Shown: piece by piece, positions 9,240 to 53,778 of the stretch
Layout: each line of letters begins with the position of its first letter
Position numbering within the stretch: the first letter of the stretch is position 1
NCBI GenBank assembly: GCA_902533295.1
Contig: CACALG010000001.1
Location: forward strand, 19,048 to 83,047
DNA: 64,000 bases
Source of the DNA: an uncultured marine group III euryarchaeote
GTDB taxonomy: Archaea > Thermoplasmatota > Poseidoniia > MGIII > CG-Epi1
Direction of reading: 5' to 3'
Made by a program: the position numbers and the translations under genes
The notes under the pieces: generated by a model
What the model was told of the DNA's origin: nothing
Seen by the model: only the letters and a program-made list of their open reading frames with translations
The model's database searches: none

Positions 9240-10707
<1,468 letters not shown>

Positions 10708-16248: not shown

Positions 16249-16986
16249 ATGACTGAACAATACCACATGAATTCCCATGAAGGCACATATACTAGGGAAT
16301 TTGAGGCTAAAGTAGAGGCTACATTCCCAGGCATCATCGAACTAGATAAGACTGCATTCTATCCATTGGGAGGGGGCCAACCCTCAGATATTGGAACAAT
16401 AACTTGGAATGAAGGAGATGCAAATGTTACTGATGTGAGGAAAAAAAATCGAATTAGGCACATTGTAGAAGGAGATTTACCAGAAGTTGGAGATTCCATA
16501 AAAGGTAATCTTGACTGGTCACGAAGATATTCACATATGAGAATGCATACTTCTCAACATTTAGTTTCTGCTGTAGTGAATGAAATATATGGTTCAGATA
16601 CCGTAGGAAATCAGATAGGAAATGAGAAGTCTAGAATAGATTTTAAGCCTTTAAAAATAAACCAAACTGAGCTTAATGAAGTAGAGGACAAAGTCAATGA
16701 TTACATATCTAAAGACTTGAAAGTTACTATATCTGAGGAATTACGGTCCAATTTAGAAAATAATCCAGATATCCGTTCAAGTATGTCTAGTGGTCTTTGG
16801 AAAATGTTACCGAAAAGTGTTACAGAATTAAGAGTAATAACCATAGGTGATATCGATGTTTGTCCATGCGCAGGCACTCATGTAAAAAGCTTAAAGGAAA
16901 TAGGTAATGTTTCTTTTATTAAAAGAGATAATAAGGGTTCTGAAAAATTAAGATTAACATATAATCTAGGCGATATCGACTCTTGA
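16249..16986 (+). CDS. alaX: AlaX-M type Ala-tRNA(Ala) editing protein (alanyl-tRNA synthetase editing-domain homolog)
   Basis: HxxxH (HTSQH) and CxxxH (CPCAGTH) zinc motifs of the AlaRS/ThrRS second additional domain; 245 aa. Confidence 0.75.
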   Translation: MTEQYHMNSHEGTYTREFEAKVEATFPGIIELDKTAFYPLGGGQPSDIGTITWNEGDANVTDVRKKNRIRHIVEGDLPEVGDSIKGNLDWSRRYSHMRMHTSQHLVSAVVNEIYGSDTVGNQIGNEKSRIDFKPLKINQTELNEVEDKVNDYISKDLKVTISEELRSNLENNPDIRSSMSSGLWKMLPKSVTELRVITIGDIDVCPCAGTHVKSLKEIGNVSFIKRDNKGSEKLRLTYNLGDIDS

Positions 16987-19900
16987 ATTTGTAAGGCCCT
17001 CTCTGTCCTTTTGTTCATACATCATTTTAATTTCTACAGAAGTTGCAGCATTACTTTTTTGTTGCATTTTTAGTTTAAATTGTACTTCGTTATATGAAGA
17101 TATATCACCCACAATAAACGAGTTATCTGAGAATGAATAATATACATCTGGATCTATACCTACTAATCCTAAGATGCTACTATTGAATTCTGGACTTATT
17201 TTACAACTACTAATAGTTTCAGATGAATAATTACTGAGATTTACGTTCAAAGTTATATTTGTACCGAGTTTTTCGTATGATGATGTAATAACAATTTCTT
17301 TTTCAGTGAAGTAATTGTCAACCATTTCTCTTGTAGATGCAATTGTTTCATCAATTATTGGGTTCAGATAAATTTTTACCTGCTTTACACTCTCGGCATC
17401 TCCATTCCAATTTGCTAGGGTTGGATTAATTGTTTCTATAGCTCTAACGGCATTAATCAGCTTCCCTTTGAACATATTATCTATTTCTCCATAAATTACA
17501 GCAGCAAGATAGGAATGTTCTCCTCTCTGTAGAATGATTTTATTATTACCATAGTCTATGGAACCCAGATCTCCTTCAGTTTGAAATGAGTCTTGAACAA
17601 AATCATTGATTGCTGTGAGCATCCCGCTCATGATATCTGTATCAGTTTTAACTTCAACAGCACTAACATTTCTAAGAAGCCTTCCATCTTTGTAAATTAA
17701 ATATAATTCTTCAACTTTATACTTAGCAATAGGTTTTGATTCAATAATAGATACATTTTCATCTAATTCTTCTTTCCTAGATCGGTATAGTAAAACACCA
17801 CCAAACATTAAGAAAAGAAGACTTATACCTATAGTAGCAGGTAAAATTTCTTTCATTCCAAATTGATCAGTTTCTGTACCTGAGGAACTATATAATTTGA
17901 CTACTTCTTCCATACTTACTGTTTCATTATTAGAATTGCTAATGTGACCGAATTCATCTTCTATTGTGATTCTATAAAAATAATCTCTGTCTGGACTTGG
18001 ATTCTTATGAATCCATTCATAATAACCTTGTTTACAGGAAGTTTCCATACCAACTCCTATTATTTCTTGTGTGAACCATCCACTATCTGAAGCAGGTAAT
18101 TCATCAGCTACCATTTGTACTTTACAAATAGCGGCATCTTCAGGAATAACAAAACCTAAAACCAATTCTGTAGCATTAGTATGCGATATTGCAACATTTG
18201 TAGCTTTCTGAGGGTCCTCTGTAAATACTTCAAAAGTTAAATGAACTCCTGAATAATCAATTTTTATGTTGTTATTACCTGTAATATCCTCAGTTGGTAC
18301 AAAACCTCCATTTGAAGTTCCACCAAATTGAATAGTCTTATTGATTATATCTAAATAATATTCATCTACTAACAATTTATTTTTGTTCATTCCTCTAACT
18401 AATGCTTTTTCATATATTCCATCTAAATCATTATCTACACTAACATTAAACCAATGGATATCATTAATTGCTGGAATATATTTCAAATTGAAACTTTGAT
18501 CATATTGCCCATTGGAACTGAAATATTCAGTAGTATCTAGTGGATTCTCAAGATTGCCTGCAAGATCACGACTTTCAGCATACAGGAAATATCGTGTATT
18601 ATCTTGCAAGTCCTGTAATTTAATTTTATCATCAGAGATATCATGAGGTAATAAATACCAAGTTAATAGATCATTACCTTTCTCTATAGTCTGTATTGCA
18701 ATATATATCTTATAATCTAGATTTAGATTATCTGTATCTATGAAGATTTCTAGATAATCATATCCCCATTTTTGAGGTACATTTGAGAAAGAAATGGTAT
18801 CTACTTTCGATGCATAATTCATTATTATATCATATTCTTCTTTATCCTCACTATTTCCGGCATAATCACTAGCCAGAATTTTAAATGCATAATGACCTAA
18901 TTCATCAAATTCATAAATATAGTGCGTGTCTCCATAAATATTTATTGAATCCAGAGCTGTCCAAGTAACTGAATTAGGATCTAAATTAGCATTTGTAAAA
19001 TTAGAATAGGAAACCTCTAGAGTATTATACGCAATATCATCTGCACTATTCTTCCACGATAAATCTATTTGACTATTGCCTATGAAATAATAATCCTCTT
19101 CAAAATTCAAAAGTTCGGTGGAAGGTATGGATGTATCAATCTTAACTTGATACTCGTAATTATTCTTATTCTCTGTGTTTCCATAAATATCTCTAGCTAA
19201 TGATCTAAACCGATATTCCTTACCATCTTCGCCAGTAAACAATACAATTGATTCTGTAAACGTGCCATATTCTTCCCATTGGGCAAATTTATCATTTACT
19301 ATATACTCAATAATATATTCTTTGAAATCATTATCATCATTCAAAAGAGATATTTGTAACTCAATAGATTCTGAATTAATTAATCCAGTTCCGGGAATTA
19401 TCTCTGATTGTGGTGATGTTGTATCCAATAATGCTAAAAGTGTGTGATTATAGGATAAATTTTTGTATATTTCTACCATAATGTCATTATTATAATAAAT
19501 AATTCTTATGGGATTATAATTAATTTCATTTTGATCGGCAGCTTTGCTAATTACATTTATCATATAATAATCGGAAAAACCATAGTTATCAGTTTGTGAA
19601 TCAACCAGTTTACTTCCAAAAGAATTTTCGATATCAAAACCATGCTCTCTTGAACCAGTGCCCCGCTCATCAGCTATATTAATTTGCAAATTGTAGCGGA
19701 TCAAATAATCAGTATCACGACAATTAAAATCATTGTTTTGTAAAGTAGAATCACTGTCAATTAAGTCCAAACAAAAATCTCCTTCTGAGAATATATTATT
19801 ATCTATTGATATAGTACTATTAAATGAATAAATAGCTTTTTCAAAATCGTTAAAGACATTGTTTAAAATATTTATATCTGATCTATAAGAGCTTACTGAT

Positions 19901-22128
19901 TGTGTATTATTCGTTAATATATTATTTGAAATTCTTCCTTCACTATTATTTGCAGTTATAGCTATTTCCGAAAAATTAATAATATTGTCTTCTAAGTCAA
20001 AATCTGCAAGAACGACAGTTATAGATTCTCTAAAATTCGTTATTATATTATCACTAACTTCGACTTCACCTTCCTGCGAAAAAATACCTACTGCAGCAAC
20101 TTTTTGTAAATAAAGAACATCACATCTATCATGTGTGCATAATCCGGTTACATTATTATTAACTATTTTACTATATGTCCTGTTACTAAGAATACCATAA
20201 TCATTTACATGCAATATATTATCTTCAATAAGTATAGGAAACGTACTATCCTCAAATCCTCCTACTTCGATACCCACTGCCGAACTTAATGTATTATTTT
20301 TAATTATAGTTTTTGGAATATAATATGCATAAATTCCTGATAATTGTGATTCAGGACTCATGTTTGTTTGAACTGTATTATTTGCAATATATCCTTCTTC
20401 AACATCTCTGAACATTATGCCAGCACCATCGATAGAATGAACAAGATTATTTGTTACATGTATATTATCAATTGTAAATGCTGAACCAAACTGAGTATAT
20501 GCAGATATTCCATTATATTTTATATTTTTGAGTGTGTTATTAGCGACAATACCATTTGATATGTCGCCAAAACCATTATCATATATCCAAATTCCTATAG
20601 ACGCATTATCAATATAATTATCCACTATAGTAAAATTTTTGTAGAAATTCCAAACCGTTATTGCTCTTGCTGATGTATTAGTAATATAATTTGAAATTAT
20701 ATGATTATCAGTTCCTACATCATTATATACATTTTCAAAATCAAGCGCTATTGGAAAGTCATTATCATTGATGGTATTATTTATTATATAATTTCCAGAA
20801 GGTGATATACCTCCTTCAGGCCAACCCCAAAGTCCTATAGCTTGCCATCCTATTTCAAAATTATTATTTCTTATAGTATTATTGTTCTGAAATGAATTAA
20901 TAAAAATAGCAATTGTGTAATTTTCAAAGTAATTATTTTCGATTAAATGACCTCCACCATAATATTCATCTGTATCAAAATCCCAGAACCAGAAAATCAT
21001 ACAACTATGCCCCCAATAGGGTTGTTTAGACCCGCAATTTATGAATGTATTATTACTGTATTCATTTCTATTTCCTGCACGATCCATAAGATTGTGCCAA
21101 TATACGCCAGAAACATTGAATATGTTGCGGCTAATTATATTGTCATCTGTAGCTTGTAGAGACATATCATGTATTGTATTATTTAGAAATTGGTTATCAA
21201 TTATTGTATGATTACTGCCTTGAGTTATAGTAAGCGTACCTCTGCCTCCCTGTCCATTATCCTTGTAAATATAATCTCTAAAGATGTTACCACTAATTAG
21301 ATTATAATTCCCATAGGAAATAGTTACACCTAATGTACCGTTAATGAAAGTATTATTTTGTATTAAGGCGTTCTCTCCTGAGACAAACAAGTCATAGAAT
21401 ATGTAACTATTATAAATCGTGTTATTAATAAATCTAAAATTATCAGTATAAGCACTAATTATTCCAATCATATCAAATGTGGAATTAGTTATGTAAGATC
21501 CAGCTCCAGTAAATCTTAATGCCTTTACATACTCAAAATCAGAATTCTCAATAATTACCCTAGTATTAGGAATTCCTGAGCCTGGCTGATTATTTACTAA
21601 TCTGCCTACTTGAACAGTATAATCTAACCTCTCTGTGTAATTCCCTTTACCAATTATATTAGATTTAATAACGGAACGATCATTACTAGTTGTCGGATTC
21701 AAATCATAATCTGTAACAATTAGTACAGAATTCTCATTTAAATCAAGACAATTAGCAGTTATTTCACTATTCTTTTGAATAGAATCAAGTATTAATTCAG
21801 AATTAATTATGGTCAGTGTACTGTATAATGATATATTGTCACCATGTGAATCTTGTTCATGAAATACTGTAGAATTAATCCATCTGGTTTCTCCTCTAAT
21901 TTCAATGAAACCTTTTGATGATAGAGAAACGTTTTCAAGTTTCAAAGTCTTACCAAAATTAACGACAATATCTTTGACTGAGACGTCCTCATCCCAAACA
22001 TGCGTGTCTTGAGTGATAATCCAATCCTGACCCTCTTGGGGTGCATTTCCATTTGAACCTGCTGAAGCATTTCCAGTACTGATTACTATCGCAGTAATTG
22101 CGATTAAAAGAAATGCTGTTTTCTTCAT
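16966..22128 (-). CDS. Giant (1720 aa) secreted surface protein: signal peptide, right-handed parallel beta-helix (PbH1/NosD-like) repeat region, beta-sandwich domains, single TM, ~280-aa cytoplasmic domain
   Basis: Signal peptide MKKTAFLLIAITAIVISTGNASA. Many N-N-T/I-x-N beta-helix rungs (IQNNTFINGT, ISGNIF, IIDNQFLNNT, ITNSTFD...). TM segment ATIGISLLFLMFGGVLLY near aa 1400. The cytoplasmic domain is homologous to ORF 1..477. Confidence 0.8.
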   Translation of the reverse strand: MKKTAFLLIAITAIVISTGNASAGSNGNAPQEGQDWIITQDTHVWDEDVSVKDIVVNFGKTLKLENVSLSSKGFIEIRGETRWINSTVFHEQDSHGDNISLYSTLTIINSELILDSIQKNSEITANCLDLNENSVLIVTDYDLNPTTSNDRSVIKSNIIGKGNYTERLDYTVQVGRLVNNQPGSGIPNTRVIIENSDFEYVKALRFTGAGSYITNSTFDMIGIISAYTDNFRFINNTIYNSYIFYDLFVSGENALIQNNTFINGTLGVTISYGNYNLISGNIFRDYIYKDNGQGGRGTLTITQGSNHTIIDNQFLNNTIHDMSLQATDDNIISRNIFNVSGVYWHNLMDRAGNRNEYSNNTFINCGSKQPYWGHSCMIFWFWDFDTDEYYGGGHLIENNYFENYTIAIFINSFQNNNTIRNNNFEIGWQAIGLWGWPEGGISPSGNYIINNTINDNDFPIALDFENVYNDVGTDNHIISNYITNTSARAITVWNFYKNFTIVDNYIDNASIGIWIYDNGFGDISNGIVANNTLKNIKYNGISAYTQFGSAFTIDNIHVTNNLVHSIDGAGIMFRDVEEGYIANNTVQTNMSPESQLSGIYAYYIPKTIIKNNTLSSAVGIEVGGFEDSTFPILIEDNILHVNDYGILSNRTYSKIVNNNVTGLCTHDRCDVLYLQKVAAVGIFSQEGEVEVSDNIITNFRESITVVLADFDLEDNIINFSEIAITANNSEGRISNNILTNNTQSVSSYRSDINILNNVFNDFEKAIYSFNSTISIDNNIFSEGDFCLDLIDSDSTLQNNDFNCRDTDYLIRYNLQINIADERGTGSREHGFDIENSFGSKLVDSQTDNYGFSDYYMINVISKAADQNEINYNPIRIIYYNNDIMVEIYKNLSYNHTLLALLDTTSPQSEIIPGTGLINSESIELQISLLNDDNDFKEYIIEYIVNDKFAQWEEYGTFTESIVLFTGEDGKEYRFRSLARDIYGNTENKNNYEYQVKIDTSIPSTELLNFEEDYYFIGNSQIDLSWKNSADDIAYNTLEVSYSNFTNANLDPNSVTWTALDSINIYGDTHYIYEFDELGHYAFKILASDYAGNSEDKEEYDIIMNYASKVDTISFSNVPQKWGYDYLEIFIDTDNLNLDYKIYIAIQTIEKGNDLLTWYLLPHDISDDKIKLQDLQDNTRYFLYAESRDLAGNLENPLDTTEYFSSNGQYDQSFNLKYIPAINDIHWFNVSVDNDLDGIYEKALVRGMNKNKLLVDEYYLDIINKTIQFGGTSNGGFVPTEDITGNNNIKIDYSGVHLTFEVFTEDPQKATNVAISHTNATELVLGFVIPEDAAICKVQMVADELPASDSGWFTQEIIGVGMETSCKQGYYEWIHKNPSPDRDYFYRITIEDEFGHISNSNNETVSMEEVVKLYSSSGTETDQFGMKEILPATIGISLLFLMFGGVLLYRSRKEELDENVSIIESKPIAKYKVEELYLIYKDGRLLRNVSAVEVKTDTDIMSGMLTAINDFVQDSFQTEGDLGSIDYGNNKIILQRGEHSYLAAVIYGEIDNMFKGKLINAVRAIETINPTLANWNGDAESVKQVKIYLNPIIDETIASTREMVDNYFTEKEIVITSSYEKLGTNITLNVNLSNYSSETISSCKISPEFNSSILGLVGIDPDVYYSFSDNSFIVGDISSYNEVQFKLKMQQKSNAATSVEIKMMYEQKDREGLTNSRVDIA

Positions 22129-35872: not shown

Positions 35873-38437
35873 CTAATCCTTTTCCTTTCCACCCTGCTGA
35901 ATTATTTCACCAGTTTGTGAATCATAAGTATTACCAGTTACTGGATCATATCTAAAACCAGATTGTTTACTTGGAATCTGATTAGTGGAAGAAGTACCTG
36001 TATCATAATCATCAAAATAATCACCACCATCACCTAAGCGACTGTAAGCAAATATTCCAAGGCCTGCAACAGTTAAAACACCTAATGGAATCCAAATCAA
36101 AGGTTGATTAATTAATGAATCTTCTTCTTCTTCTTCCACCTCAATAATTTCTATCTCTTCCTCTACAGCAACCGTAACTTCTGCGGAAACGCGATTATCT
36201 AATTCATTAAACTCATCAATTATATTATCAGGATCAATCACTGCTTCGATGTAATAAAGTCCAGGTTCAGTGGGTTTCCAATAGAAAACTCTCACTTCCT
36301 CACCATTGACACGTCCCAAAGGTTTTGTTTGATATATATCAACTAATTCACCATCAATAAAGAGAGAAATTTCAGCTCCAATACACTCTTCTGAAGAGTT
36401 ATCAAAAGAAATACCAAATGGACATTCACAACAAATTTCAGGACCGAAATTTATAGCACTAATTTCTATCTCCAAAGTTTGATTCAAATATATCATACTT
36501 GGAATGTCTCCCATCTCGACAGATAATTGGAAATTTCGTGGTTTAACATTGATTGATAAATTTATTTTATTATCTGTTAAATTCAAATCTTCAAAGTCGC
36601 TGTTTGTTATCACTGCCTCTATTGTAATATTGTGAAGACCATCCATTGTTGTTGTCCTCCAGAAGACAGTTACAAATCGAATTTCTTCATAAGCTAAATT
36701 TTCTTGGGGAACATTGTAGATTGCATTACCTTCAAAATCATAAGTCTGTACTTCAGGTGAAGTGGAATTATCCAAGTAAACCAATAAATGGAATGATGGA
36801 ATTTTAGCCATATTATTCCTTACCTGAACAACCATTTCAACATTATCTCCACGAAATACAGTATCAACAGCATCAACAGATACTAAGGTCAAATCATAGT
36901 CCGGAGCGGCTACGTTGATTAGCATAGATTTTACATTATTAGAATCATCTAATTCTTCAATCTCCTTCGCTGAATCTGCATGCCCTGCTACGCTTGGTTG
37001 CTGCTCATCCCAAGTATATTCACCCGTAATATTGTAAAATTCCCCTTCATTCAAATTTAGAATCCAAGAATCAATAACTTCTCCATCAATTCTCAACTCA
37101 ATAGGGCAATTAGTGATATCCTGTGCTCCTTTGTTAAAGGCTGTAATTATTATATCCGAAGGCATACCTCTAACAGCTTGACCTACTACTGAAATCTCAT
37201 GGATGGTGATATCTGGTTTAGATTCTAGAACGACTAAGCTAAAAGTAAAATTATTATCTTCTTCATCCCATTCTTCAATTTCATTCAAAGGGTCAATTCT
37301 TATAATAATTGTATGGTTACCGATAATCTCTGTACCAGAACCTGCATCCCATGTTACAGTAGCTGGTTCAGTTGCAGATACTATCTCTTCTCCTACCCTT
37401 GTAGCATTATCCATATTACTAATGATACTATAACCAATTAGTGACTCAGCACCTCCCTCTGGTATATCATAAAACCCTACACGTACATTCTCAGCTCCAA
37501 CAACATAATCATCATTAAAAATATGAACTGTTAATTTAACAGAATGTTGGTCAAATACATCTTCCAACCAAGTGTCATCAGGATTTATTGTAATATTACG
37601 AGATTCATCTAAGGTTAACTCAGGTGTGTGTGCTCTGACTTGAACTGTAGCCTCATAAGTGTTGTCATCTTCCACAAATTCATCAATATCGTCATCAGAA
37701 TCTAGAACAATCGTAATCGTAAATTCTCCTATTCCATCAGGTTGCCATGTTATATTGTACTGACCAGAATCACCAGCCCCAATTATAGTTCTAACTTGGG
37801 GATTAGAAATTGTATTTGTTTGACCATCAAGTGTTTGACGAAATTCAATATTGAAATTTGTACAATCATCACGGCCATTATTATCAAAAAGAACTAAAAT
37901 ATCAACTGAATCTCCCTCTGCGGGATTTTCAGGTGTAAACATGATATTCAATTCCGCAGGTAGTGGTCTAAGATTTGCTAGAGGACCAGGAGGCACAGGA
38001 TATATGGTATATTCATATACGATTTTGTTATTATCTTCATCTGTTTCAATAATCTCGTCATCATAGTCCACAGAGATAGTCAAGACACGATCGCCAAATC
38101 CGCCGCACTCACTTGCACCACAAGTAATATCAATTATCGCAATCCTTTCATTACCAATAACTGGCTCAGTTTGTTCATGGATAGGAATACATTCATCTTC
38201 TGGATCACATTCAGAGGTACTATTCCATACAATAATTTTTACATCAGTAGCAGGATTTATAGGATCATGATTGACAACTTCGAAATATATTTCTAATTCT
38301 TCTCCTTGAAGAGGAAAATCTGGTGAAAACGTAAAATTAACTGGTTCTAGGTCTATAGCTTCGGCATCTCCTGTAAATAAGAACAGAACCAATACAGCCC
38401 CAAAAACGGTCACAATTGCACTCGTCAACCTTTTCAT
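35873..38437 (-). CDS. Secreted surface protein with multiple CARDB-like domains and a C-terminal TM anchor
   Basis: Signal peptide MKRLTSAIVTVFGAVLVLFLF. Repeated domain ends E(E/D)xNN...V (EEWDEEDNNFTF, IDEFNELDNRVSAEV, IDEFVEDDNTYEATV, ELDDSNNVKSMLINV). TM segment LIWIPLGVLTVAGLGIFAY. Confidence 0.65.
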   Translation of the reverse strand: MKRLTSAIVTVFGAVLVLFLFTGDAEAIDLEPVNFTFSPDFPLQGEELEIYFEVVNHDPINPATDVKIIVWNSTSECDPEDECIPIHEQTEPVIGNERIAIIDITCGASECGGFGDRVLTISVDYDDEIIETDEDNNKIVYEYTIYPVPPGPLANLRPLPAELNIMFTPENPAEGDSVDILVLFDNNGRDDCTNFNIEFRQTLDGQTNTISNPQVRTIIGAGDSGQYNITWQPDGIGEFTITIVLDSDDDIDEFVEDDNTYEATVQVRAHTPELTLDESRNITINPDDTWLEDVFDQHSVKLTVHIFNDDYVVGAENVRVGFYDIPEGGAESLIGYSIISNMDNATRVGEEIVSATEPATVTWDAGSGTEIIGNHTIIIRIDPLNEIEEWDEEDNNFTFSLVVLESKPDITIHEISVVGQAVRGMPSDIIITAFNKGAQDITNCPIELRIDGEVIDSWILNLNEGEFYNITGEYTWDEQQPSVAGHADSAKEIEELDDSNNVKSMLINVAAPDYDLTLVSVDAVDTVFRGDNVEMVVQVRNNMAKIPSFHLLVYLDNSTSPEVQTYDFEGNAIYNVPQENLAYEEIRFVTVFWRTTTMDGLHNITIEAVITNSDFEDLNLTDNKINLSINVKPRNFQLSVEMGDIPSMIYLNQTLEIEISAINFGPEICCECPFGISFDNSSEECIGAEISLFIDGELVDIYQTKPLGRVNGEEVRVFYWKPTEPGLYYIEAVIDPDNIIDEFNELDNRVSAEVTVAVEEEIEIIEVEEEEEDSLINQPLIWIPLGVLTVAGLGIFAYSRLGDGGDYFDDYDTGTSSTNQIPSKQSGFRYDPVTGNTYDSQTGEIIQQGGKEKD

Positions 38438-42238: not shown

Positions 42239-44332
42239 CTAATTTTCTTTATCATCACTCATTTTTTTTCTGAGCTGTTCAACAGAAACCGAAATTTTCT
42301 TTTCAGGAATGGATTCTGCGCCTTGGGTAAATTCTTCAACCTCTTCAACTTCCTCATTAAAATCACCAACGTCTTCAATATCTGATGAATCATCATCAAA
42401 AACTTCAACCGCTGACTCAGCGACATCCTCTTCTCCAATATTTTTAGAAATAGCATAATCTCCATCACTACCTTGTCCCACAGCAATATCCCCGCTTTCG
42501 ATATCCTCTGCCAATTGCATGCGCTTTTCTGAACTAGCATCATCCACTATTTCCTCTAACAATTCCTCTGGTGAAAGCTCCTCCTCCACTTCTGGAAATT
42601 CCTCATCTTCTGTCTCAATAAGTTCATCTAAATCTAATTCAACTTCCTCATTATACAAGAATTCTGGCATTTCAGGAGCTACCGCACCTGGTGTAGCTAT
42701 TGCATCATAAAATTCAAAAGCCGTCCTCTCAACCTCTTCCACAAATTCTTCTAAATCTTCTTCCCCTATTCTAGAATAGATAGTAGCCATTCTATCTGCA
42801 ATGAATGCAAAGTAATTCGGTGCAACTTCAAATGCTTTTTCAGTCCATGTAAATGGAATCCATGCCATAACTTGCTTATTTTTAGGATCTACTGTTATTT
42901 TTAATTGAGGACCAGGATAAATTATACCACCGCAGGAAACATCATAATTATTCATATATGCTAAAACTTTGTACACATCTTCTTGTTTTGGTGTTTCAGT
43001 TAAATTATATTTGGCCTCAAAATAGAAATTGACTTTCTTATAATTCATGAAAATTTCAGGCCTTCCTGAACCCTGAACAGGATTGGTCTTAGTGTCTGAT
43101 TCAGCAAAAAGTGAACCCATTATTGAATCGCTCCAGCCTTGCCTTACTTGTTCTGGTGCATCATATTTCAATACTACATCTTTATTTTTAGATCTAAACT
43201 CACGAAGTGATTTAGCATGTGCACTTAATTTTAATCCTGATGCCATCTCACAGAGAATCCATAGAGCATAAATATCTGTCATCTTTTGTGTCTGTACAAG
43301 TACTGTTTCTTCATAATATGATTGGTACTCATCTAAAAACTCTCTCCACAAAGGGGGCAATTCTCTGTAAGAACGATTTCTACTCCAAGTTTTAGCTTCG
43401 ATAAGTGCTTCTCTATTAATTAAACGCTGCTCTTTACGAGTAGCCTTAGCAGTAGGTATTAATTCTGCTAATTTCCCATCACCTAAGACCTGTTTATGGA
43501 ATTTACATGCCATATCTAACTTATCCAATTGCTCCTTAACTGAATCATTAGGGGGCTGATATTCTTTGCCATAAATTGCAGACCAAGCTTTCTTTTCCCT
43601 TTCTCTTCTATCCATTTCATCTCTAAAAAAGATAGCTTCAATGAAAACTTCCATATGGAATTTTACAAGAAGGATGTTAGTGGGTGTACTCCATCTCCTC
43701 TTTCGGATATCTGTTACATGAGCAGTAGCATATTCTGTACCTTTTTGAGCACGAGCAAGAGCCGTTTTTTGCCACCTTACTGCACCCCTTATCTGGGATT
43801 TCATAGTCTTTCTTTCAACTTCTACTTTGTAAGTGTAAGCTCCTTTTCGGATATCATTTGTAACTTTCAACAATTTTCCAGAAAATTCTAATAATTGTTC
43901 AATATTAAGTAATATTTTCTCCTCTTCAATTGATGATGTCCCACCAGGATACATGTCTTCGGGCGGATCATCGGCTCCAGAATTCTTAACCAAATCAGGA
44001 ATATGAACATCTCGTAATTCTTTGAAGCTCTCATAATCTAACATCTTAGGAGCTATCACAACTTCTAGCTTGTTTGAAACCGAACTTCCATCTTTACTGT
44101 GCAAACTTATAGTGTTAGTTCCAATATAGTCTGGCACTACAAACTGTAGAGAATGTGTTGTATTTGATCTAACTGGAGGTAATGAATCAACTTTAGCACT
44201 ACCTACTCTGATATGCACATCTTCTAATGCCTTGAAAGCATTAACATTCAACATAACTGATTCACCCTCAGTCAAATTCTCAGAATGACCCTCTGGTAAT
44301 CTGAGATCTATAGTTGCATCTGGTAAACTCAT
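42239..44332 (-). CDS. McrC-like putative nuclease partner (697 aa) with a PD-(D/E)xK-like motif and a ~170-aa polyacidic C-terminal tail
   Basis: RPEIFMNYKKVNFYFEAKYN resembles the McrC/restriction-endonuclease-fold h-h-E-A-K-Y core. Immediately downstream of, and 1 nt from, the McrB-like gene. Tail is EEVELDLDELIETEDEEFPEVEEE... Confidence 0.4.
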   Translation of the reverse strand: MSLPDATIDLRLPEGHSENLTEGESVMLNVNAFKALEDVHIRVGSAKVDSLPPVRSNTTHSLQFVVPDYIGTNTISLHSKDGSSVSNKLEVVIAPKMLDYESFKELRDVHIPDLVKNSGADDPPEDMYPGGTSSIEEEKILLNIEQLLEFSGKLLKVTNDIRKGAYTYKVEVERKTMKSQIRGAVRWQKTALARAQKGTEYATAHVTDIRKRRWSTPTNILLVKFHMEVFIEAIFFRDEMDRREREKKAWSAIYGKEYQPPNDSVKEQLDKLDMACKFHKQVLGDGKLAELIPTAKATRKEQRLINREALIEAKTWSRNRSYRELPPLWREFLDEYQSYYEETVLVQTQKMTDIYALWILCEMASGLKLSAHAKSLREFRSKNKDVVLKYDAPEQVRQGWSDSIMGSLFAESDTKTNPVQGSGRPEIFMNYKKVNFYFEAKYNLTETPKQEDVYKVLAYMNNYDVSCGGIIYPGPQLKITVDPKNKQVMAWIPFTWTEKAFEVAPNYFAFIADRMATIYSRIGEEDLEEFVEEVERTAFEFYDAIATPGAVAPEMPEFLYNEEVELDLDELIETEDEEFPEVEEELSPEELLEEIVDDASSEKRMQLAEDIESGDIAVGQGSDGDYAISKNIGEEDVAESAVEVFDDDSSDIEDVGDFNEEVEEVEEFTQGAESIPEKKISVSVEQLRKKMSDDKEN

Positions 44333-44333
44333 A

Positions 44334-47243
44334 TCAACCGAATACGCTTAAACCTGGTGAATCAACCATTTTCTCTAAGGTATTGCTTATGCCGTGGTCT
44401 TGACCAAGAACTTCTTGAGCTTTTAGCATTAAACATTTTAGCTCATTTCTTTCCAATCCTTCCAATGCAGGCATTATATTGGATTTAATTACATCCTCTA
44501 ATGCTCTATCTAAATCATATTGCCCTCGAGAATTAAAGACAGTCAACATTGAATCTATAATTACTGCAGGACCAATCTTTCTATAAGTTCTAACACCTCT
44601 TGCAATTTCATCATCTCTAGATTGAGGTAACTCTTCTTCCTCCAAGAAATTCATAAATTTATTGAATGCTTTGAACATTGTCCCATCATCATCATAAAAG
44701 TCAAACATTTCTTTGGCATACCAATCCTCCTCTTCACTGTCCTCAGGCCTATCAGGTGCAATTCCCAACTTATTCAGTTTATTGAACACAAATATAGGCA
44801 TACGTCTGTACTCATCATCTCTATCAGGAAGACCAATTTCAACGAAAGCAAATCTTCTCATTAAAGCGTGACCCACATTGAAAAGAGTATTCTTATCTTG
44901 AGTATTCATAGTTCCAATTATTCTGAATTCTGGTGGCATCATAAACGGAGCCCCGCCAGTCTCTTTTGCTGTAAGAAGTGCTTGCTTGTCCCTGTACTCA
45001 AACACCGTAAATAATTTACCAAAAGCTTCATCGATATTTGCTCTATTAAACTCATCGATTACTAAATAATGAGGTTTGCCATCCTCTTGCATTGTTTTTT
45101 CACAACTCTTTGCAGCATCTGCAACATAACCATCTTTGAAAAAATAACCTCCTGAATCATCTGGTGAGATACCACCAATAACTTCGAAATTAGACCATTC
45201 TGCATTTGCAGTTACAATGGTGTAATTAGGAATAGGACTGCCGTCTTTTCCCTCTTTGACTCCACATATTTGACTCAGCAAAAGATTAGCTAATGCTGTT
45301 TTACCAGTACCTGGATCTCCATACAACATTATGTTTCTACCAGATTTAAGGTGTGTTACTGTCTGATTAATAGTATCTTCAGTCGTTGAATAATATTTTG
45401 ATAATTCTTCATAGTCAACATTGTAATCGACTTTCATTGCTTTTCGAATCTTTGGAGATTCAGCTAATTCTTCTTTCAAATCCTTTTCTAAATCATCTAA
45501 GTGAGAAAGATCAGCTCCATAATTTTCATCCTCTGTTGGCTTGATGTCTATTGTTGCTTCAGGAAATTCTGAAAGAAGCCTATCCATTGCATCTTCTAAA
45601 CTAATTTCTTTAGGTGTTGATGATGATGGAGTTTCGTCAGATTTTGGCCCATCTTCTGCCTCAAAAGAAGAATCGAAGGGATCTGAGGAAGGGGGACTAG
45701 ATAATTGCATTTCCATCATTTTATCTCTGAATTTCTCTGCACCAAATTGCCAACCATACCATATAGCACCTCCAGAAACTATGAGTGGAATTAGAAACAT
45801 AGCCCATTCTTCACTCGATTCAGGAGATGAAATATCTGAACCTGAAAGTAAAGCAGGAGCAATCATTGTTGCGAATAAAGTGCCTATTCCTGCTACAAAT
45901 AATCCAAAATAAGCAAACCCTTCCATGCTTTCTTCGGATTTCCTTTTCCGGTAAAATAAGAATACACCCAAAAATGTAATAACCATAAACAAAACAGTAA
46001 GAATCCAGTCTCCCTGTTCAAAATAAAAATTAGCCCCATTACGTAATAAATTCCATAACAATACAATGTACTGGAATCCAAGACCAAACAATATGAAGAA
46101 GAAATATTTTGCTTCTTCCATATCTTTCAAACGAATTGTTTGAAGAATATAGGCTGCAATACCTATCAAAAGAGCTAAAACACCAAGCATTAAAACTAGC
46201 ATTTCACCCGCTTGAAGATTAAGCATCACTGTTGCAGTTCCCATTGGTGGGTCTGCGGATGCACAAGCAGATTGAAGATCTGGGATTGTACTATCGTATG
46301 ATCCAACTGCGTCACATGAAGCCCATGGTCCACGCACCCAATTATGGTGTATAGATCCAAATACTAATGAACCGGCTCCCACAAAGGAATAAATTGTACT
46401 CAGTGGAGCCTCTCCAATGTCTTTTCCAGTTACTGCATACAAAAATACGATATAAGATACAATAATTATTATTAGAGAAGACGTCGCTCCTAGAGATGAA
46501 TAAAATCCATCTAGTGCACCTTTTGGATATGTCTCATTAATGAATGACTCACCTTCTGTAAGCTTTTCATCATTTGCGCTAGAATATCCACCGCCTACAT
46601 AAACATAAATAATAAGCATCACAAAAACACACAGAATTAATGGAGCCATGATATTACTATCATTAATCCGTCTTGCTTGTATCATAATTAATAGAGCAAG
46701 GAGCGTAAGCAAACCAAAAACAGACTGAAATTGATGAGTATCTACTTTGAAATCGGATGTATCAAAATTATCTCCTTCACCGACACGACCCCCCGGTCCA
46801 TTATTCAAAACCAACGGACATCCATCTTTATCTCCACGAACATCTATATCCGACCAACCTGGACACACAAGTGGGTTATTATCATCAGTCCAACCAAGTA
46901 AAGTCAACTGCGCTTTTTCTTCATCAGTTAACTCTTGTTCTATCTCGCTATTTGACTCTGGAGCCTCATCATTGTAATGTGGGATGTCTCCTGTTGTATA
47001 ATACAAAATCAAACCTAAGAGGGCAACAGCAATCAAAAATTGTAAAGCTGGCAAGTAAAAACTAGGTTTAGTTTTGATTAAAGGTGGTTTAGAAGTTGCA
47101 GCAGGCTTACCTTCAGATTTAGAAACTGGTGTCTCCACTTGAGAAGGACCTGAATCCTTAGCTCCAGACAGATTTACACCGCAAATATTACAGAATGGTG
47201 CATTATCTTCAACATCTACAGCACAGACTGGGCACTTTTTCAT
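44334..47243 (-). CDS. Fusion protein (969 aa): N-terminal double zinc ribbon, polytopic membrane domain (~8 TM), acidic linker, C-terminal McrB-family AAA+ GTPase domain
   Basis: CPVCAVDVEDNAPFCNICG. Multiple hydrophobic helices at aa ~60-480. Walker A LYGDPGTGKTALA, Walker B YLVIDEFNRANIDEAFGKLFTVFE (McrB DEINRAN...FGE), GTMNTQDKN (McrB N-T-x-D), ALMRRF. Confidence 0.6.
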   Translation of the reverse strand: MKKCPVCAVDVEDNAPFCNICGVNLSGAKDSGPSQVETPVSKSEGKPAATSKPPLIKTKPSFYLPALQFLIAVALLGLILYYTTGDIPHYNDEAPESNSEIEQELTDEEKAQLTLLGWTDDNNPLVCPGWSDIDVRGDKDGCPLVLNNGPGGRVGEGDNFDTSDFKVDTHQFQSVFGLLTLLALLIMIQARRINDSNIMAPLILCVFVMLIIYVYVGGGYSSANDEKLTEGESFINETYPKGALDGFYSSLGATSSLIIIIVSYIVFLYAVTGKDIGEAPLSTIYSFVGAGSLVFGSIHHNWVRGPWASCDAVGSYDSTIPDLQSACASADPPMGTATVMLNLQAGEMLVLMLGVLALLIGIAAYILQTIRLKDMEEAKYFFFILFGLGFQYIVLLWNLLRNGANFYFEQGDWILTVLFMVITFLGVFLFYRKRKSEESMEGFAYFGLFVAGIGTLFATMIAPALLSGSDISSPESSEEWAMFLIPLIVSGGAIWYGWQFGAEKFRDKMMEMQLSSPPSSDPFDSSFEAEDGPKSDETPSSSTPKEISLEDAMDRLLSEFPEATIDIKPTEDENYGADLSHLDDLEKDLKEELAESPKIRKAMKVDYNVDYEELSKYYSTTEDTINQTVTHLKSGRNIMLYGDPGTGKTALANLLLSQICGVKEGKDGSPIPNYTIVTANAEWSNFEVIGGISPDDSGGYFFKDGYVADAAKSCEKTMQEDGKPHYLVIDEFNRANIDEAFGKLFTVFEYRDKQALLTAKETGGAPFMMPPEFRIIGTMNTQDKNTLFNVGHALMRRFAFVEIGLPDRDDEYRRMPIFVFNKLNKLGIAPDRPEDSEEEDWYAKEMFDFYDDDGTMFKAFNKFMNFLEEEELPQSRDDEIARGVRTYRKIGPAVIIDSMLTVFNSRGQYDLDRALEDVIKSNIMPALEGLERNELKCLMLKAQEVLGQDHGISNTLEKMVDSPGLSVFG

Positions 47244-47276
47244 TAATGGACAGTTAAGAGTATTGGTTAAAAGCTT

Positions 47277-51780: not shown

Positions 51781-53778
51781 TTGCATTGGACTATGTTTGG
51801 CATAGGAGCCATAGGTGCAATAGATACTTGGCAAGAATTGAATACAACCGGTGAAGGAATAATAACCAACTGGTTTGTAGGTGGCTTAATTAATATTTTT
51901 GGACCTTTCTTATTATGGATAGGTGGGGCTTTGTTGCTTTCAAGATTAGGTGCAGCCGGACCTTCTATAATGCTTAAATTCTTCAGAAAAACCCCATTGC
52001 TTTCTGATGTAAAGAGAGGTCTTGAATCGACTGGAACAAGTGAATCTACAGGTAGACTATCAACAATTATGCTATTGACATTATCAATAGTAACTCTCGC
52101 AGCCGTACAAGGATATACAGGTTCTCTTGTCGATGAAAGAACAGCGGATTTAGATATTGGTAGCGACATCAAAGTTTATGCTGTTGAACCAATGACTTCA
52201 ATTGAAGTAGAACAAGCAATCACTAATATCAGCTCTAAAGACCTTACTGTAAATGCAGTAAATGTACCGATTATTCCCTTGATATCTGAGGATGGGACGG
52301 ACGTTAATGCATATGTACTAATGAATGAAAGTACCGAGATACTCAAATGGTTTCCTCAAGCCGTTCCTGGAAAAGATATTTCTGAAGCAATGATTGCATA
52401 CAAAGATGGAGGATTCACAGCAGGCGAAGATATAGCATTTACATTGGATTTATGGGGTTCTGGCCGTTACGGTGATTCAGAAGACATATTACTAGATAAA
52501 AGCAATAAGAACTCAGAAAATTTGAATTTAACATGGGAAGAAACTATTGTTACCTTTACAGGTGAGGAAAATGAAGAACTAGATCCAATGATGGCGATAG
52601 TGTTGTATACTGGGTTCATGGAAAAGAATTGGTCAAATATTGACCTATCTAACCAGGATATAAGCAGCCGGAATTTTACACAAACTGACTTTTCGAATAC
52701 AAATTTATCTGGTGCCAATTTAGCTAATTCAGATTTATCAGAATCGATATTCTTCAACGTTGATCTAAGGGGTGCTAATCTAACTGGTGCAAATCTAAAC
52801 AATACTGTATTTGTGATACAACCACAAAACATTGTCGGTGCAAACTTTACAGGTGCAAATCTGAGAGGGGCCTTTGAATATACTGGATTTGTTAATTTGT
52901 CAAACGAGGAAATAAGTGGTGCTATTTGCCCTGATGGAACTATACAAACTAATGATAATAATTGTTCCACTGGATTTAGTACAATACCTCCCCCCTTACT
53001 GGCACCTTTCTTTATTCCTGCAACAGTTGAATTTGAAGTGATTCCACATGAAACAACTATACGATACATTGGAGTTCATGAATTCATTCCTGGTGTTGCT
53101 ACAAATGACATGAATAATTATTTAGTAATAAATGAGCTAGCATATAGAGAATTACGAGGAAATCAATTCGTTGATAGTGAAACTTCAACTACTTGGATTG
53201 TAGATATAGATGGGCTCAATAATGATGAATTACAAGTATTGGCCCTGCTAATAGCTGCAGATTCTCGTTTTGAAAGTGCCGATGATTGGGAAACATCACA
53301 TGAAAATGTTGAGAGAAATGGAGGAATTATATTCGGAACACAGGGTCTTTTCACACTACAATATCTTGTTGCAAGTGTTGCTGCAATAGCCTCATCATTT
53401 GTTTTCTTATCATTAGTTTTAAATCAAAAGAAGAAAGAATTGGCTATTTTACAAGCAATAGGAGCTAGTCCAAATCAGATTATCAGACTCGTTTTATTCG
53501 AGATTCTATCTATAGTATTTGTTTCTATGATTTTAGGAGTTATACTCGGTATTGGTTTGGCTTTATCCTTTAACGGACTGTTTGATATCTTTGGATTCTT
53601 ATTCCAGTTGTTTTCTGGAACTGGAGAATCATCAGTAATTACAAGAGTACTACAGTGGCCTTGGTGGGTTATAATCAAGGTCACATTAGGTGTACTATCT
53701 GTGGTTGTCTTGGCTTTAATTATGACCACCAGAAGGGCATTACGTGCCGATTTAGCCGTTGTTTTAAAGGGAGAATAA
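51781..53778 (+). CDS. FtsX-family ABC permease with a large extracytoplasmic domain containing pentapeptide repeats
   Basis: C-terminal FtsX domain KKELAILQAIGASPNQIIRLVLFEILSIVF...TTRRALRADLAVVLKGE. About 20 A(N/D)LxG-type pentapeptide units at aa ~285-380 (DLSNQDISSRNFTQTDFSNTNLSGANLANSDLSESIFFNVDLRGANLTGANLNNTVF...ANFTGANLRGA). Confidence 0.65.
   Translation: MHWTMFGIGAIGAIDTWQELNTTGEGIITNWFVGGLINIFGPFLLWIGGALLLSRLGAAGPSIMLKFFRKTPLLSDVKRGLESTGTSESTGRLSTIMLLTLSIVTLAAVQGYTGSLVDERTADLDIGSDIKVYAVEPMTSIEVEQAITNISSKDLTVNAVNVPIIPLISEDGTDVNAYVLMNESTEILKWFPQAVPGKDISEAMIAYKDGGFTAGEDIAFTLDLWGSGRYGDSEDILLDKSNKNSENLNLTWEETIVTFTGEENEELDPMMAIVLYTGFMEKNWSNIDLSNQDISSRNFTQTDFSNTNLSGANLANSDLSESIFFNVDLRGANLTGANLNNTVFVIQPQNIVGANFTGANLRGAFEYTGFVNLSNEEISGAICPDGTIQTNDNNCSTGFSTIPPPLLAPFFIPATVEFEVIPHETTIRYIGVHEFIPGVATNDMNNYLVINELAYRELRGNQFVDSETSTTWIVDIDGLNNDELQVLALLIAADSRFESADDWETSHENVERNGGIIFGTQGLFTLQYLVASVAAIASSFVFLSLVLNQKKKELAILQAIGASPNQIIRLVLFEILSIVFVSMILGVILGIGLALSFNGLFDIFGFLFQLFSGTGESSVITRVLQWPWWVIIKVTLGVLSVVVLALIMTTRRALRADLAVVLKGE

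What the first reader, a model, noticed from the sequence alone, without database searches (positions are those of the whole stretch)
42239..47243. Candidate membrane-integrated McrBC-like GTPase-nuclease system
Two co-directional genes sit 1 nt apart between gap and the GINS gene.
- The 5' gene (44334..47243) ends in an AAA+ domain with McrB-specific hallmarks. These are Walker B DEFNRAN followed by FGKL, a GTMNTQD segment carrying the McrB N-T-x-D GTP-specificity motif, and ALMRRF.
- Ahead of that domain come an N-terminal Cys4 double zinc ribbon, about 8 TM helices with a ~90-aa extracellular loop, and a ~120-aa acidic Ser/Pro-rich linker.
- The 3' gene (42239..44332) has a restriction-endonuclease-fold-like core (RPEIF...FYFEAKY) preceded by ~450 aa of unassigned sequence, and ends in a ~170-aa polyacidic tail that could be a DNA mimic or autoinhibitory segment.

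Known McrBC, and Mrr- or GmrSD-style methyl-directed restriction systems generally, are cytosolic. I am not aware of a described family with a polytopic membrane domain fused to McrB. The architecture suggests envelope-coupled sensing or injection-site surveillance feeding a GTP-driven nuclease.
Basis: partly seen in the sequence, partly recalled or inferred. Interest (0 to 1): 0.85.

Follow-up and report, generated by a model that had tools for sequence, protein, structure and literature searches.

The report
Membrane-anchored McrBC-like GTPase–nuclease pair
Two adjacent genes of a Marine Group III archaeon encode a McrBC-type GTPase and nuclease whose GTPase is built into the cell membrane, and the pair is inherited like a housekeeping operon rather than like a mobile antiviral island.

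Summary

The defence-island reading is not supported.
- In all 30 loci of about 37 Poseidoniia genomes (many labelled Marine Group III) that were complete enough to score, the order GINS-like | A, B, gap is kept.
- B identity tracks GAPDH identity (r = 0.99). The AAA+ domain is more conserved than GAPDH in 30 of 30 loci.
- GC3 and codon usage match the flanks. No viral or plasmid copies were found.
- At least 24 of these genomes also carry a second membrane-McrB paralog with no McrC-like gene in the fetched flanks.

The nearest non-membrane relatives look like restriction systems: one TPR-EVE-McrB with a B homolog, and one TPR-McrB beside SIR2. I read this as a new, lineage-fixed membrane variant of McrBC. 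Its role is unresolved.

The parts
44334..47243 (-). Gene A: zinc ribbon, 10-helix membrane domain, linker and McrB-type AAA+ GTPase (969 aa)
   Evidence: ORF. Pfam AAA_5 at residues 637-798, E 1e-18. NCBIfam best hit McrB, 6e-17. Only McrB chains among solved structures.
47172..47243 (-). N-terminal Cys4 zinc ribbon (aa 1-24; C4, C7, C18, C21), predicted cytoplasmic
   Evidence: The four Cys are invariant in 9 orthologs and kept in 9 of 10 paralogs aligned. Pfam zinc-ribbon hits are sub-threshold.
45750..47060 (-). Polytopic membrane domain (aa 62-498), about 10 helices. Three large outside loops (81-171, 217-252, 299-348), two of them with Cys pairs (C127/C142 and C310/C327).
   Evidence: Hydropathy scans. 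AlphaFold2 helices at nine of the ten positions, though the model has low confidence. The loops are the least conserved parts: dN about 0.5, against 0.03 in the AAA+ domain.
45399..45749 (-). Acidic Ser/Pro-rich linker (aa 499-615) with a conserved segment at about 545-572
   Evidence: Composition of residues 500-615. Invariant columns L549 to T570.
44814..45398 (-). McrB-type AAA+ core (aa 616-810): Walker A GDPGTGKT, Walker B DEFNRAN, N-T-x-D signature MNTQD, ALMRRF
   Evidence: Residue-by-residue alignment to E. coli McrB 6hz4 and 6ut6. 76-98% identical among orthologs and 77-80% to the paralog.
44337..44813 (-). C-terminal region of A (aa 811-969). I take it to be the AAA+ lid; it lies beyond the part aligned to solved McrB.
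   Evidence: 58-95% identical among orthologs. The McrB alignments end at about residue 809. The lid assignment is an inference.
42239..44332 (-). Gene B: McrC-like partner (697 aa)
   Evidence: ORF. No sequence-family hit. AlphaFold2 model with pLDDT 80. Top fold matches are McrC.
44048..44332 (-). B N-terminal beta-sandwich, Ig-like (aa 1-95)
43313..44047 (-). B middle region (aa 96-340), mixed strands and long helices. It corresponds to the McrC N-terminal (DUF2357-type) part, with helical insertions.
   Evidence: Foldseek alignments to McrC span 429-491 columns, which covers whole McrC chains of 336-414 residues. Secondary structure. The domain assignment is an inference.
42833..43312 (-). 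B PD-(D/E)xK nuclease domain (aa 341-500): E362 on the first helix, P425-E426, E439-A-K441, then YKVLAYMN and GGIIYPG
   Evidence: Alpha-beta-beta-beta-alpha-beta order in the model. hhalign places E426, E439 and K441 on E. coli McrC D244, D257 and K259. Motif table over 48 family members.
42242..42760 (-). B polyacidic tail (aa 525-697) with conserved short motifs AIATPGAVAPE (544-554) and GDYA (624-627)
   Evidence: Composition. Invariant columns. Among the 17 family members aligned, only the window protein's two closest relatives (P0196, P0197) carry such a tail; the more distant members end near residue 545.

Best explanation
A and B form a McrBC-type, GTP-dependent nuclease machine that is tethered to the cytoplasmic membrane.

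Shown:
- A carries a canonical McrB GTPase module behind a zinc ribbon and a polytopic membrane domain.
- B has the McrC fold, with an acidic, acidic, Lys site in the McrC catalytic positions.
- The two genes are 1 nt apart and co-directional, which fits translational coupling.
- The pair is a vertically inherited, syntenic operon of Marine Group III (Poseidoniia) archaea under very strong purifying selection.
- Most of these genomes also carry a second membrane-McrB paralog with no nuclease gene nearby.

Inferred, by analogy with solved McrBC complexes:
- Six A subunits form a GTPase ring under the membrane, held there by about 60 helices.
- B plugs the ring, stimulates GTP hydrolysis, and is licensed to cut nucleic acid close to the membrane.
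- The usual N-terminal modified-DNA reader of McrB has been replaced by the membrane module. Spatial confinement, or a signal passed through the membrane domain, would then replace base-modification reading.

Because the pair behaves like a housekeeping operon and not like a mobile island, I think it most likely is a type IV restriction system that became fixed in this lineage and was put to a constitutive cellular use. Whether its substrate is incoming foreign DNA or the cell's own nucleic acid is not resolved.
For: McrB identity:
- Pfam AAA_5, 1e-18.
- NCBIfam McrB, 6e-17, far better than GvpN.
- Only McrB chains among solved structures, with Walker A, Walker B and N-T-x-D aligned.

McrC identity:
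- Foldseek top three are McrC (E 2e-8 to 2e-6) over the whole McrC length. The fourth is the B. subtilis YdjA-YdiS model.
- hhalign puts E426, E439 and K441 on McrC D244, D257 and K259.
- Distant family members give near-threshold Pfam McrBC and PDDEXK_7 hits.

Membrane domain.

Core status:
- The order GINS-like | A, B, gap | ApbA, THUMP, ADSL is kept in all 30 loci complete enough to score.
- r(B, gap) = 0.99. The AAA+ domain is more conserved than gap in 30 of 30 loci. GC3 and codon usage are like the flanks.
- dN/dS of the AAA+ part is about 0.01-0.03.
- No copies in viral contigs or plasmids.

Restriction-type ancestry:
- The Thermoplasmata relative is TPR-EVE-AAA_5 followed by a B homolog.
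- Another relative is TPR-AAA+ with a SIR2 gene between it and a B homolog.
Against: - No experiment and no complex model. Ring formation, B insertion and GTP dependence are inferred from homology.
- The window's B has no significant sequence-family hit, and the hhalign probability is low (3.4%, E 0.013).
- The catalytic Lys is Q in four and R in two of the 33 Poseidoniia B sequences. It is lost in the archaeal sister tier. Nuclease activity may therefore not be essential to the family.
- The membrane-domain model is unreliable (pLDDT 48.7), so its fold and any pore are unknown.
- 'Core' rests on about 37 incomplete genomes that were found through two exact peptide patterns.
- The cellular substrate is unknown.
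Confidence: 0.55

Rival explanations
1. The pair is an active antiviral type IV restriction system. Its membrane domain senses virus adsorption or envelope perturbation, or simply positions the nuclease at the DNA entry site, and B destroys incoming DNA. It happens to be fixed in this lineage.
For: - The family is defence-derived, and its nearest non-membrane relatives carry EVE or sit beside SIR2.
- The nuclease site is intact in 27 of 33 Poseidoniia B proteins.
- The three extracellular loops are by far the fastest-evolving parts and carry indels: dN about 0.5 against 0.03. A surface under virus pressure would look like this.
Against: - The pair is single-copy, strictly syntenic, co-directional with gap, and more conserved than GAPDH across the whole lineage. 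There is no island signature and no mobile copies. Defence genes usually turn over quickly.
- Loop dN/dS is 0.2-0.4, not above 1, although dS is saturated.
- A second paralog that is equally widespread has no nuclease gene nearby.
Confidence: 0.3
2. The pair is a non-nucleolytic GTP-driven remodeller. B's PD-(D/E)xK domain is only a structural or nucleic-acid-binding module. The complex would remodel or assemble membrane or surface components, or tether DNA or RNA to the membrane.
For: - The catalytic Lys is replaced in two Poseidoniia subclades and lost in the sister tier, including partners of EVE-McrB.
- The paralog works with no nuclease gene nearby.
- B carries an Ig-like domain and a long acidic tail with conserved short motifs that suggest protein-protein contacts.
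- CoCoPALM systems link McrBC homologs to pilus assembly (PMC11090510).
Against: - E362, E426, E439 and K441 are all kept in the window protein and in 27 of 33 orthologs.
- From my own knowledge, not checked here: Gln in place of Lys occurs in active enzymes of this fold, for example BglII.
Confidence: 0.12
3. A is a MoxR, CbbQ or GvpN-type AAA+ chaperone, and B is an unrelated adaptor.
For: All these families share Pfam AAA_5. GvpN is the second NCBIfam hit (3e-7).
Against: McrB scores ten orders of magnitude better. Only McrB appears among solved structures. The N-T-x-D signature is invariant. B's best structural matches are McrC.
Confidence: 0.02

Closest known systems
E. coli and Thermococcus gammatolerans McrBC (type IV restriction; PDB 6hz4, 6ut6, 6ut3-6ut7)
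   Same: - McrB-type AAA+ module with Walker A, Walker B and the N-T-x-D signature.
- A partner with the McrC fold and an acidic, acidic, Lys site in register with McrC D244, D257 and K259.
- Gene order B then C with almost no spacer.
   Different: - The N-terminal modified-DNA reader is replaced by a zinc ribbon and about 10 membrane helices.
- B is twice the size of McrC, with an Ig-like N-terminal domain, helical insertions and a 170-aa acidic tail.
- B does not reach any McrC sequence model.
- The pair is a syntenic, vertically inherited operon with a second, partnerless paralog.
CoCoPALM systems (Bell et al., eLife 2024, PMC11090510)
   Same: McrB-family GTPase fused to a membrane-spanning module and paired with a McrC homolog.
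   Different: As the paper describes them, CoCoPALM has an FtsB-like membrane helix plus coiled coils, belongs to the group with the NxD signature variant, and sits beside signal-peptidase or pilus genes. The pair here has about 10 helices, the canonical NxxD signature (MNTQD), no signal-peptidase or pilus gene among its neighbours, and is archaeal.
TPR-EVE-McrB plus B-family partner in Thermoplasmata bin33 (CP070751, locus L074), and TPR-McrB, SIR2 and B homolog (locus L006)
   Same: The AAA+ domain is 47-50% identical to A's. The partner belongs to the same B family (29-30% identity; HMM E 7e-179 for the L074 partner).
   Different: These relatives have soluble reader or repeat domains (TPR, EVE) instead of a membrane domain. 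Their partners have no acidic tail and lack the catalytic Lys. Their neighbours are not the conserved housekeeping set.
Bacillus subtilis YdjA-YdiS (integrative model 9a5m)
   Same: The 9a5m_A chain is the fourth-best Foldseek match to B (E 3e-6 over 543 columns).
   Different: From memory only, these are components of the soluble BsuMI restriction system, with no membrane domain. I did not examine this further.
FtsK/SpoIIIE DNA translocases (an architectural analogy only, from general knowledge)
   Same: An N-terminal membrane domain, then a long low-complexity linker, then a C-terminal hexameric NTPase motor.
   Different: The motor folds are unrelated (RecA-like FtsK against AAA+ McrB). FtsK has no nuclease partner. 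No homology was detected here.

Membership tests
McrB (GTPase subunit of McrBC, AAA_5 clade) | AAA+ domain that matches McrB better than other AAA_5 families | tested here: met
   NCBIfam McrB 6e-17 against GvpN 3e-7, although far below the equivalog cut-off (61 against 637 bits). All 5 solved-structure hits are McrB.
McrB (GTPase subunit of McrBC, AAA_5 clade) | N-x-x-D signature (MNTAD in E. coli) after sensor 1, plus Walker B DExNRAN | tested here: met
   MNTQD is aligned to MNTADR and DEFNRAN to DEINRAN. Both are invariant in orthologs and in the paralog.
McrB (GTPase subunit of McrBC, AAA_5 clade) | GTP binding and hydrolysis, stimulated by McrC | not testable with these tools
   Needs biochemistry.
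McrB (GTPase subunit of McrBC, AAA_5 clade) | N-terminal nucleic-acid specificity domain | tested here: not met
   Residues 1-615 give only sub-threshold zinc-ribbon hits and contain about 10 membrane helices.
McrC (Pfam PF10117 McrBC; DUF2357 plus PD-(D/E)xK) | Sequence match to the McrC or PDDEXK_7 models | tested here: not met
   The window protein has no hit at E <= 1. Distant family members score 19-23 bits against a cut-off of 23.9 for PF10117. One (P0216) passes PDDEXK_7, with 23.9 bits against 22.1.
McrC (Pfam PF10117 McrBC; DUF2357 plus PD-(D/E)xK) | McrC fold over both the N-terminal and the nuclease parts | tested here: met
McrC (Pfam PF10117 McrBC; DUF2357 plus PD-(D/E)xK) | Catalytic D...D-x-K triad (D244, D257, K259 in E. 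coli; residue numbers from memory) | tested here: met
   E426, E439 and K441 sit in register. The triad is kept in 27 of 33 Poseidoniia orthologs, with Q in 4 and R in 2. Activity itself was not tested.
McrC (Pfam PF10117 McrBC; DUF2357 plus PD-(D/E)xK) | Encoded immediately downstream of, and co-directional with, a McrB gene | tested here: met
   1-nt spacer. B lies directly after A in every locus that extends past A's 3' end.
Mobile defence island or type IV restriction system in the ecological sense | Patchy distribution, variable neighbourhood, compositional deviation, or presence on mobile elements | tested here: not met
   Synteny is conserved in all 30 scorable loci. r(B, gap) = 0.99. 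GC3 and codon usage match the flanks. No viral or plasmid copies.
CoCoPALM or CoCoNuT branch of McrBC | NxD signature variant and extensive coiled coils | tested here: not met
   The signature here is NxxD (N780-T-Q-D783). The definition is taken from PMC11090510. Coiled coils were not tested formally.
MoxR, CbbQ or NorQ chaperones | Best match to MoxR-type AAA+, and a VWA-domain partner | tested here: not met
   No such hits. The partner has the McrC fold.

The most novel reading that the evidence does not exclude
McrBC has been domesticated in Marine Group III archaea into an essential, membrane-embedded GTP-driven machine. It consists of two paralogous polytopic McrB motors, one of them coupled to a McrC nuclease. 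It would handle the cell's own or imported nucleic acid at the membrane, for example as a functional analogue of FtsK/SpoIIIE or of a DNA-uptake channel with a nuclease. This would be the first housekeeping role for a type IV restriction machine.
Probability: 0.25. Interest if true: 0.85.

Novelty: new variant of a known kind. Interest (0 to 1): 0.65.

Why it matters
McrBC is the textbook GTP-dependent, modification-dependent restriction enzyme, and the solved examples are soluble. Here its motor is fused to a roughly 10-helix membrane domain. The nuclease partner has gained an Ig-like domain and a long acidic tail. The pair, together with a second motor paralog, behaves as a slowly evolving core operon of an abundant, uncultured group of ocean archaea.

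That gives a concrete case for asking how defence machines become fixed or are put to new uses, and what a McrB ring does when it is attached to a membrane. It also assigns a fold and a probable activity to a protein family (B) that has no annotation at all. That family comprises only 33 clusters at 50% identity among 1.8 billion representative proteins.

Tried and rejected
1. The AlphaFold2 model of the membrane domain (aa 1-505, 8 sequences) reached only pLDDT 48.7. I did not run a fold search on it, so the membrane fold remains unassigned.
2. The afdb50 fold library was not available.
3. The 17-member B alignment was too diverse for a genome scan.
4. The third homolog search, with the B family profile, was swamped by close MGIII sequences and listed no distant members.
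5. The B profile against solved-structure sequences gave only chance-level hits.
6. dN/dS: all pairs of species representatives are saturated at synonymous sites (dS > 1). Positive selection on the outside loops therefore cannot be judged. Only the rank order is usable: loops, then membrane helices, then AAA+.
7. Apparent split A genes in four genomes looked like pseudogenes, but each of those loci carries a run of 10 or 100 N, and the breaks in A fall between the two aligned halves. I rejected them as assembly or masking gaps.
8. I looked for B homologs beside the paralog with BLAST and with a family HMM. None was found.
9. Viral-contig and plasmid searches for B were negative.
10. The bacterial-type promoter and terminator scan was uninformative for an archaeon.
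11. The cluster look-up gave no organism names.
Full report
**Observation**

Two minus-strand ORFs lie exactly where stated: A at 44334..47243 (969 aa) and B at 42239..44332 (697 aa). A's stop and B's start read TGA-t-ATG. B's stop is 27 nt before the start of gap. All three genes are co-directional and tightly packed. The flanks are housekeeping genes:
- a weak GINS/Sld5-like gene (18.1 bits, below the cut-off), tRNA-splicing endonuclease and an unassigned 237-aa ORF on one side;
- GAPDH, ketopantoate reductase, a THUMP protein and adenylosuccinate lyase on the other.

An archaeal 16S rRNA gene is in the window.

**Gene A**

Pfam finds AAA_5 at residues 637-798 (E 1e-18). The best NCBIfam hit is McrB (6e-17). 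The next is GvpN (3e-7), and no MoxR-type model appears. A sequence search of all solved structures returns only McrB chains from E. coli and Thermococcus gammatolerans (E about 1e-17 to 1e-15). In these alignments GDPGTGKT, DEFNRAN...FGKL, MNTQD and ALMRRF sit on the corresponding McrB motifs.

Upstream of this domain there are:
- a single Cys4 zinc ribbon (C4, C7, C18, C21);
- eight strongly and two moderately hydrophobic 19-residue segments between residues 62 and 498;
- a 116-residue acidic Ser/Pro/Thr-rich stretch, which nevertheless contains an invariant segment at about 545-572.

Ten helices put the zinc ribbon, the K/R-rich short loops (ARRINDSN, RLKDMEEAK, YRKRKSE) and the AAA+ domain in the cytoplasm. 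The three long loops (81-171, 217-252, 299-348), two of them with Cys pairs, then face outside. This topology is an inference from hydropathy and charge. The AlphaFold2 model of this part is too poor (pLDDT 48.7) to say more.

**Gene B**

No Pfam, NCBIfam, PADLOC or solved-structure sequence hit was found. An exhaustive HMMER search of 1.84 billion representative proteins finds only 33 clusters. They fall into three tiers.

| Tier | Identity to B | Features |
|---|---|---|
| Close marine-archaeal relatives | 48-61% | Same length class, acidic tail |
| About 545-aa archaeal-type proteins | 25-35% | No acidic tail |
| About 500-aa proteins | 21-25% | Textbook R-P-D...(L)-D-x-K-Y motif |

The third tier gives near-threshold Pfam matches to the C-terminal nuclease part of McrC (PF10117, 19-23 bits against 23.9) and to PDDEXK_7. 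One member passes the PDDEXK_7 cut-off.

An AlphaFold2 model of B(1-545), built on this 17-member alignment, has mean pLDDT 80. It shows an N-terminal beta-sandwich, a middle region with long helices, and a C-terminal alpha-beta-beta-beta-alpha-beta unit.
- Foldseek against 350,542 chains ranks three McrC chains first (E 2e-8, 3e-7, 2e-6). The alignments cover the whole McrC length. The B. subtilis YdjA-YdiS model comes next.
- A profile-to-sequence alignment with E. coli McrC (fetched) is statistically weak (E 0.013). It places B's P-E426, E439-A-K441, YKVLAYMN and GGIIYPG on McrC's T-D244, D257-A-K259, YQLMNYL and GLLIYPH.

D244, D257 and K259 are the residues I recall as the McrC catalytic triad. 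That recollection was not checked here.

Across 33 Poseidoniia B proteins the Lys is kept in 27, is Gln in 4 and is Arg in 2. The helix Glu (E362), Pro425 and Tyr442 are invariant across the 17 diverse family members aligned.

The tail (525-697; 63 D/E in 173 residues) carries conserved short motifs, AIATPGAVAPE and GDYA. Among the 17 aligned family members, only the window protein's two closest relatives also have such a tail.

**Distribution and inheritance**

Homologs of both proteins are abundant in marine metagenomes at 53-95% identity. A scan of one genome per prokaryotic species found 66 loci in about 37 Poseidoniia assemblies. Many of these are labelled Marine Group III. The nearest, AH-321-L02, is 81% identical in A and 92% in GAPDH.

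- Every locus complete enough to score (30 loci) keeps the order orf237, EndA, GINS-like | A, B, gap | ApbA, THUMP, ADSL.
- Over these loci, B-core identity correlates with GAPDH identity at r = 0.99, and the A AAA+ domain at r = 0.96.
- The AAA+ domain is more conserved than GAPDH in 30 of 30 loci. B-core is at least as conserved as GAPDH in 21 of 30.
- GC3 and codon usage of A and B fall within the range of the flanking genes.
- Nonsynonymous divergence is about 0.03 in the AAA+ part, 0.1-0.2 in the membrane helices and about 0.5 in the outside loops. Synonymous sites are saturated.
- No B homolog is found in viral contigs or plasmids.
- Four apparently split A genes lie in loci that contain runs of N, so I treat them as assembly or masking gaps.

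These results do not fit a mobile or rapidly turning-over defence island.

**A second paralog**

At least 24 of the same assemblies carry, elsewhere in the genome, a second protein of 950-1270 aa with the same plan: a zinc ribbon (present in 9 of the 10 paralogs aligned), 8-10 hydrophobic segments, a linker and an AAA+ domain. Its Walker A core (PGTGKT), Walker B and MNTQD motifs are unchanged.
- The AAA+ core is 77-80% identical to A's, while the membrane helices are mostly 13-35% identical.
- Its neighbourhood is also conserved and housekeeping-like: peptidase M3, AhpC, an asparagine-synthase-like gene and an Elp3-like radical SAM enzyme. A divergently transcribed protein of about 790 aa has three hydrophobic segments and a GreA/GreB C-terminal-type domain.
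- No B-family gene is detectable in the fetched paralog loci, by BLAST or by a family HMM.

**Relatives outside the lineage**

Four relatives with A-type AAA+ domains or B-family partners were examined.
- A Thermoplasmata chromosome (L074) encodes a 1090-aa TPR-EVE-AAA_5 protein (AAA+ 47% identical), followed by a B homolog.
- An unnamed metagenomic contig (L006) encodes a 1101-aa TPR protein with a 50%-identical AAA+ domain. A SIR2 gene lies between it and a B homolog.
- A contig binned as Planctomycetales (L075) has a DUF4340-AAA_5 protein and a B-family fragment downstream.
- Two third-tier B homologs have no McrB gene on the DNA fetched. One sits after two LPG_synthase_TM genes (L009, L010). 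The other is on a 2.9-kb contig that is too short to judge.

So A's motor and the B family form a distinct McrBC sub-branch. Its soluble members look like ordinary modification-dependent restriction systems.

**Literature**

The McrBC census by Bell et al. (eLife 2024, PMC11090510) defines McrC as DUF2357 plus PD-(D/E)xK. It notes frequent insertions and Ig-like and zinc-ribbon accessory domains. It describes CoCoPALM systems, in which the GTPase is fused to an FtsB-like membrane helix with coiled coils, within the group that has the NxD signature. I found nothing on a polytopic McrB fusion or on McrBC in Marine Group III. The library searched is incomplete.

**Interpretation**

The molecular identity is well supported: a membrane-integrated McrB-type GTPase with a McrC-like nuclease partner. 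The mechanism is inferred by homology. It would be a hexameric ring under the membrane, plugged and activated by B, with cleavage confined to the membrane-proximal zone.

The biological role is open. The inheritance pattern makes me favour a fixed, constitutive function (confidence 0.55) over a classical antiviral system that senses the envelope (0.30). The fast-evolving outside loops and the restriction-type ancestry keep the antiviral reading alive. A non-nucleolytic remodeller is a minor alternative (0.12), suggested by the Lys substitutions and the partnerless paralog. A MoxR-type chaperone is effectively excluded.

**Verdict**

This is a new, membrane-integrated and lineage-fixed variant of McrBC. 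Interest 0.65.

Noticed in passing
Loci L043-L048, L050, L052, L053, L056-L065, L067-L071, L076 (for example L045:5089-8154): The same genomes carry a second paralog of A at a different, also conserved locus. It has the same plan: zinc ribbon, 8-10 hydrophobic segments, and an AAA+ core 77-80% identical to A's. No McrC-like gene was found in the fetched loci.
   Followed up: partly
L045:2612-4981 (minus strand), with counterparts in L047, L063, L068, L070: A conserved protein of about 790 aa, transcribed divergently from the paralog. It has three hydrophobic segments, a leucine-zipper-like stretch and a C-terminal GreA/GreB C-terminal-type domain (E 1.5e-10). This is an unusual combination, and it is a candidate partner of the paralog.
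   Followed up: no
L074:5047-10011 (Thermoplasmata bin33 chromosome, CP070751): A TPR-EVE-AAA_5 McrB-like protein (1090 aa) followed by a B-family protein whose D-x-K Lys is replaced (VDTIY). A SAM methyltransferase gene lies upstream.
   Followed up: partly
L009:4510-8560 and L010:1572-5622: A distant B-family member with the canonical PD...DxK motif sits directly after two LPG_synthase_TM membrane-protein genes and next to glycosyltransferases. No McrB gene is on the DNA fetched.
   Followed up: no
L031, L051, L055, L066 (within gene A): In four assemblies gene A is split, and each of these loci contains a run of 10 or 100 N. Three of the four breaks lie in or beside an outside loop of the membrane domain. 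This may reflect population-level variability that breaks assemblies, or masking.
   Followed up: partly
window 9240-10707 (minus strand): A complete archaeal 16S rRNA gene (1504 bits), in a stretch of about 50% GC against a 35% background. No other rRNA gene reached threshold anywhere in the 64-kb window, so the rRNA genes appear to be unlinked.
   Followed up: no
window 16966-22128 (minus strand): A 1720-aa ORF in the lowest-GC stretch of the window (28-31%). It has right-handed beta-helix/NosD repeats and a C-terminal cohesin-like domain, so it is probably a surface protein.
   Followed up: partly
window 51781-53778 (plus strand): An FtsX-type permease (665 aa) with a pentapeptide-repeat region ahead of its FtsX permease domain. 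It lies next to ABC ATPase genes. A large CARDB-domain protein is at 35873-38437.
   Followed up: partly
window 47244-47276: Only 33 nt separate the start of A from the divergently transcribed GINS-like gene, which leaves little room for two separate archaeal promoters. The arrangement is conserved in the orthologous loci.
   Followed up: no
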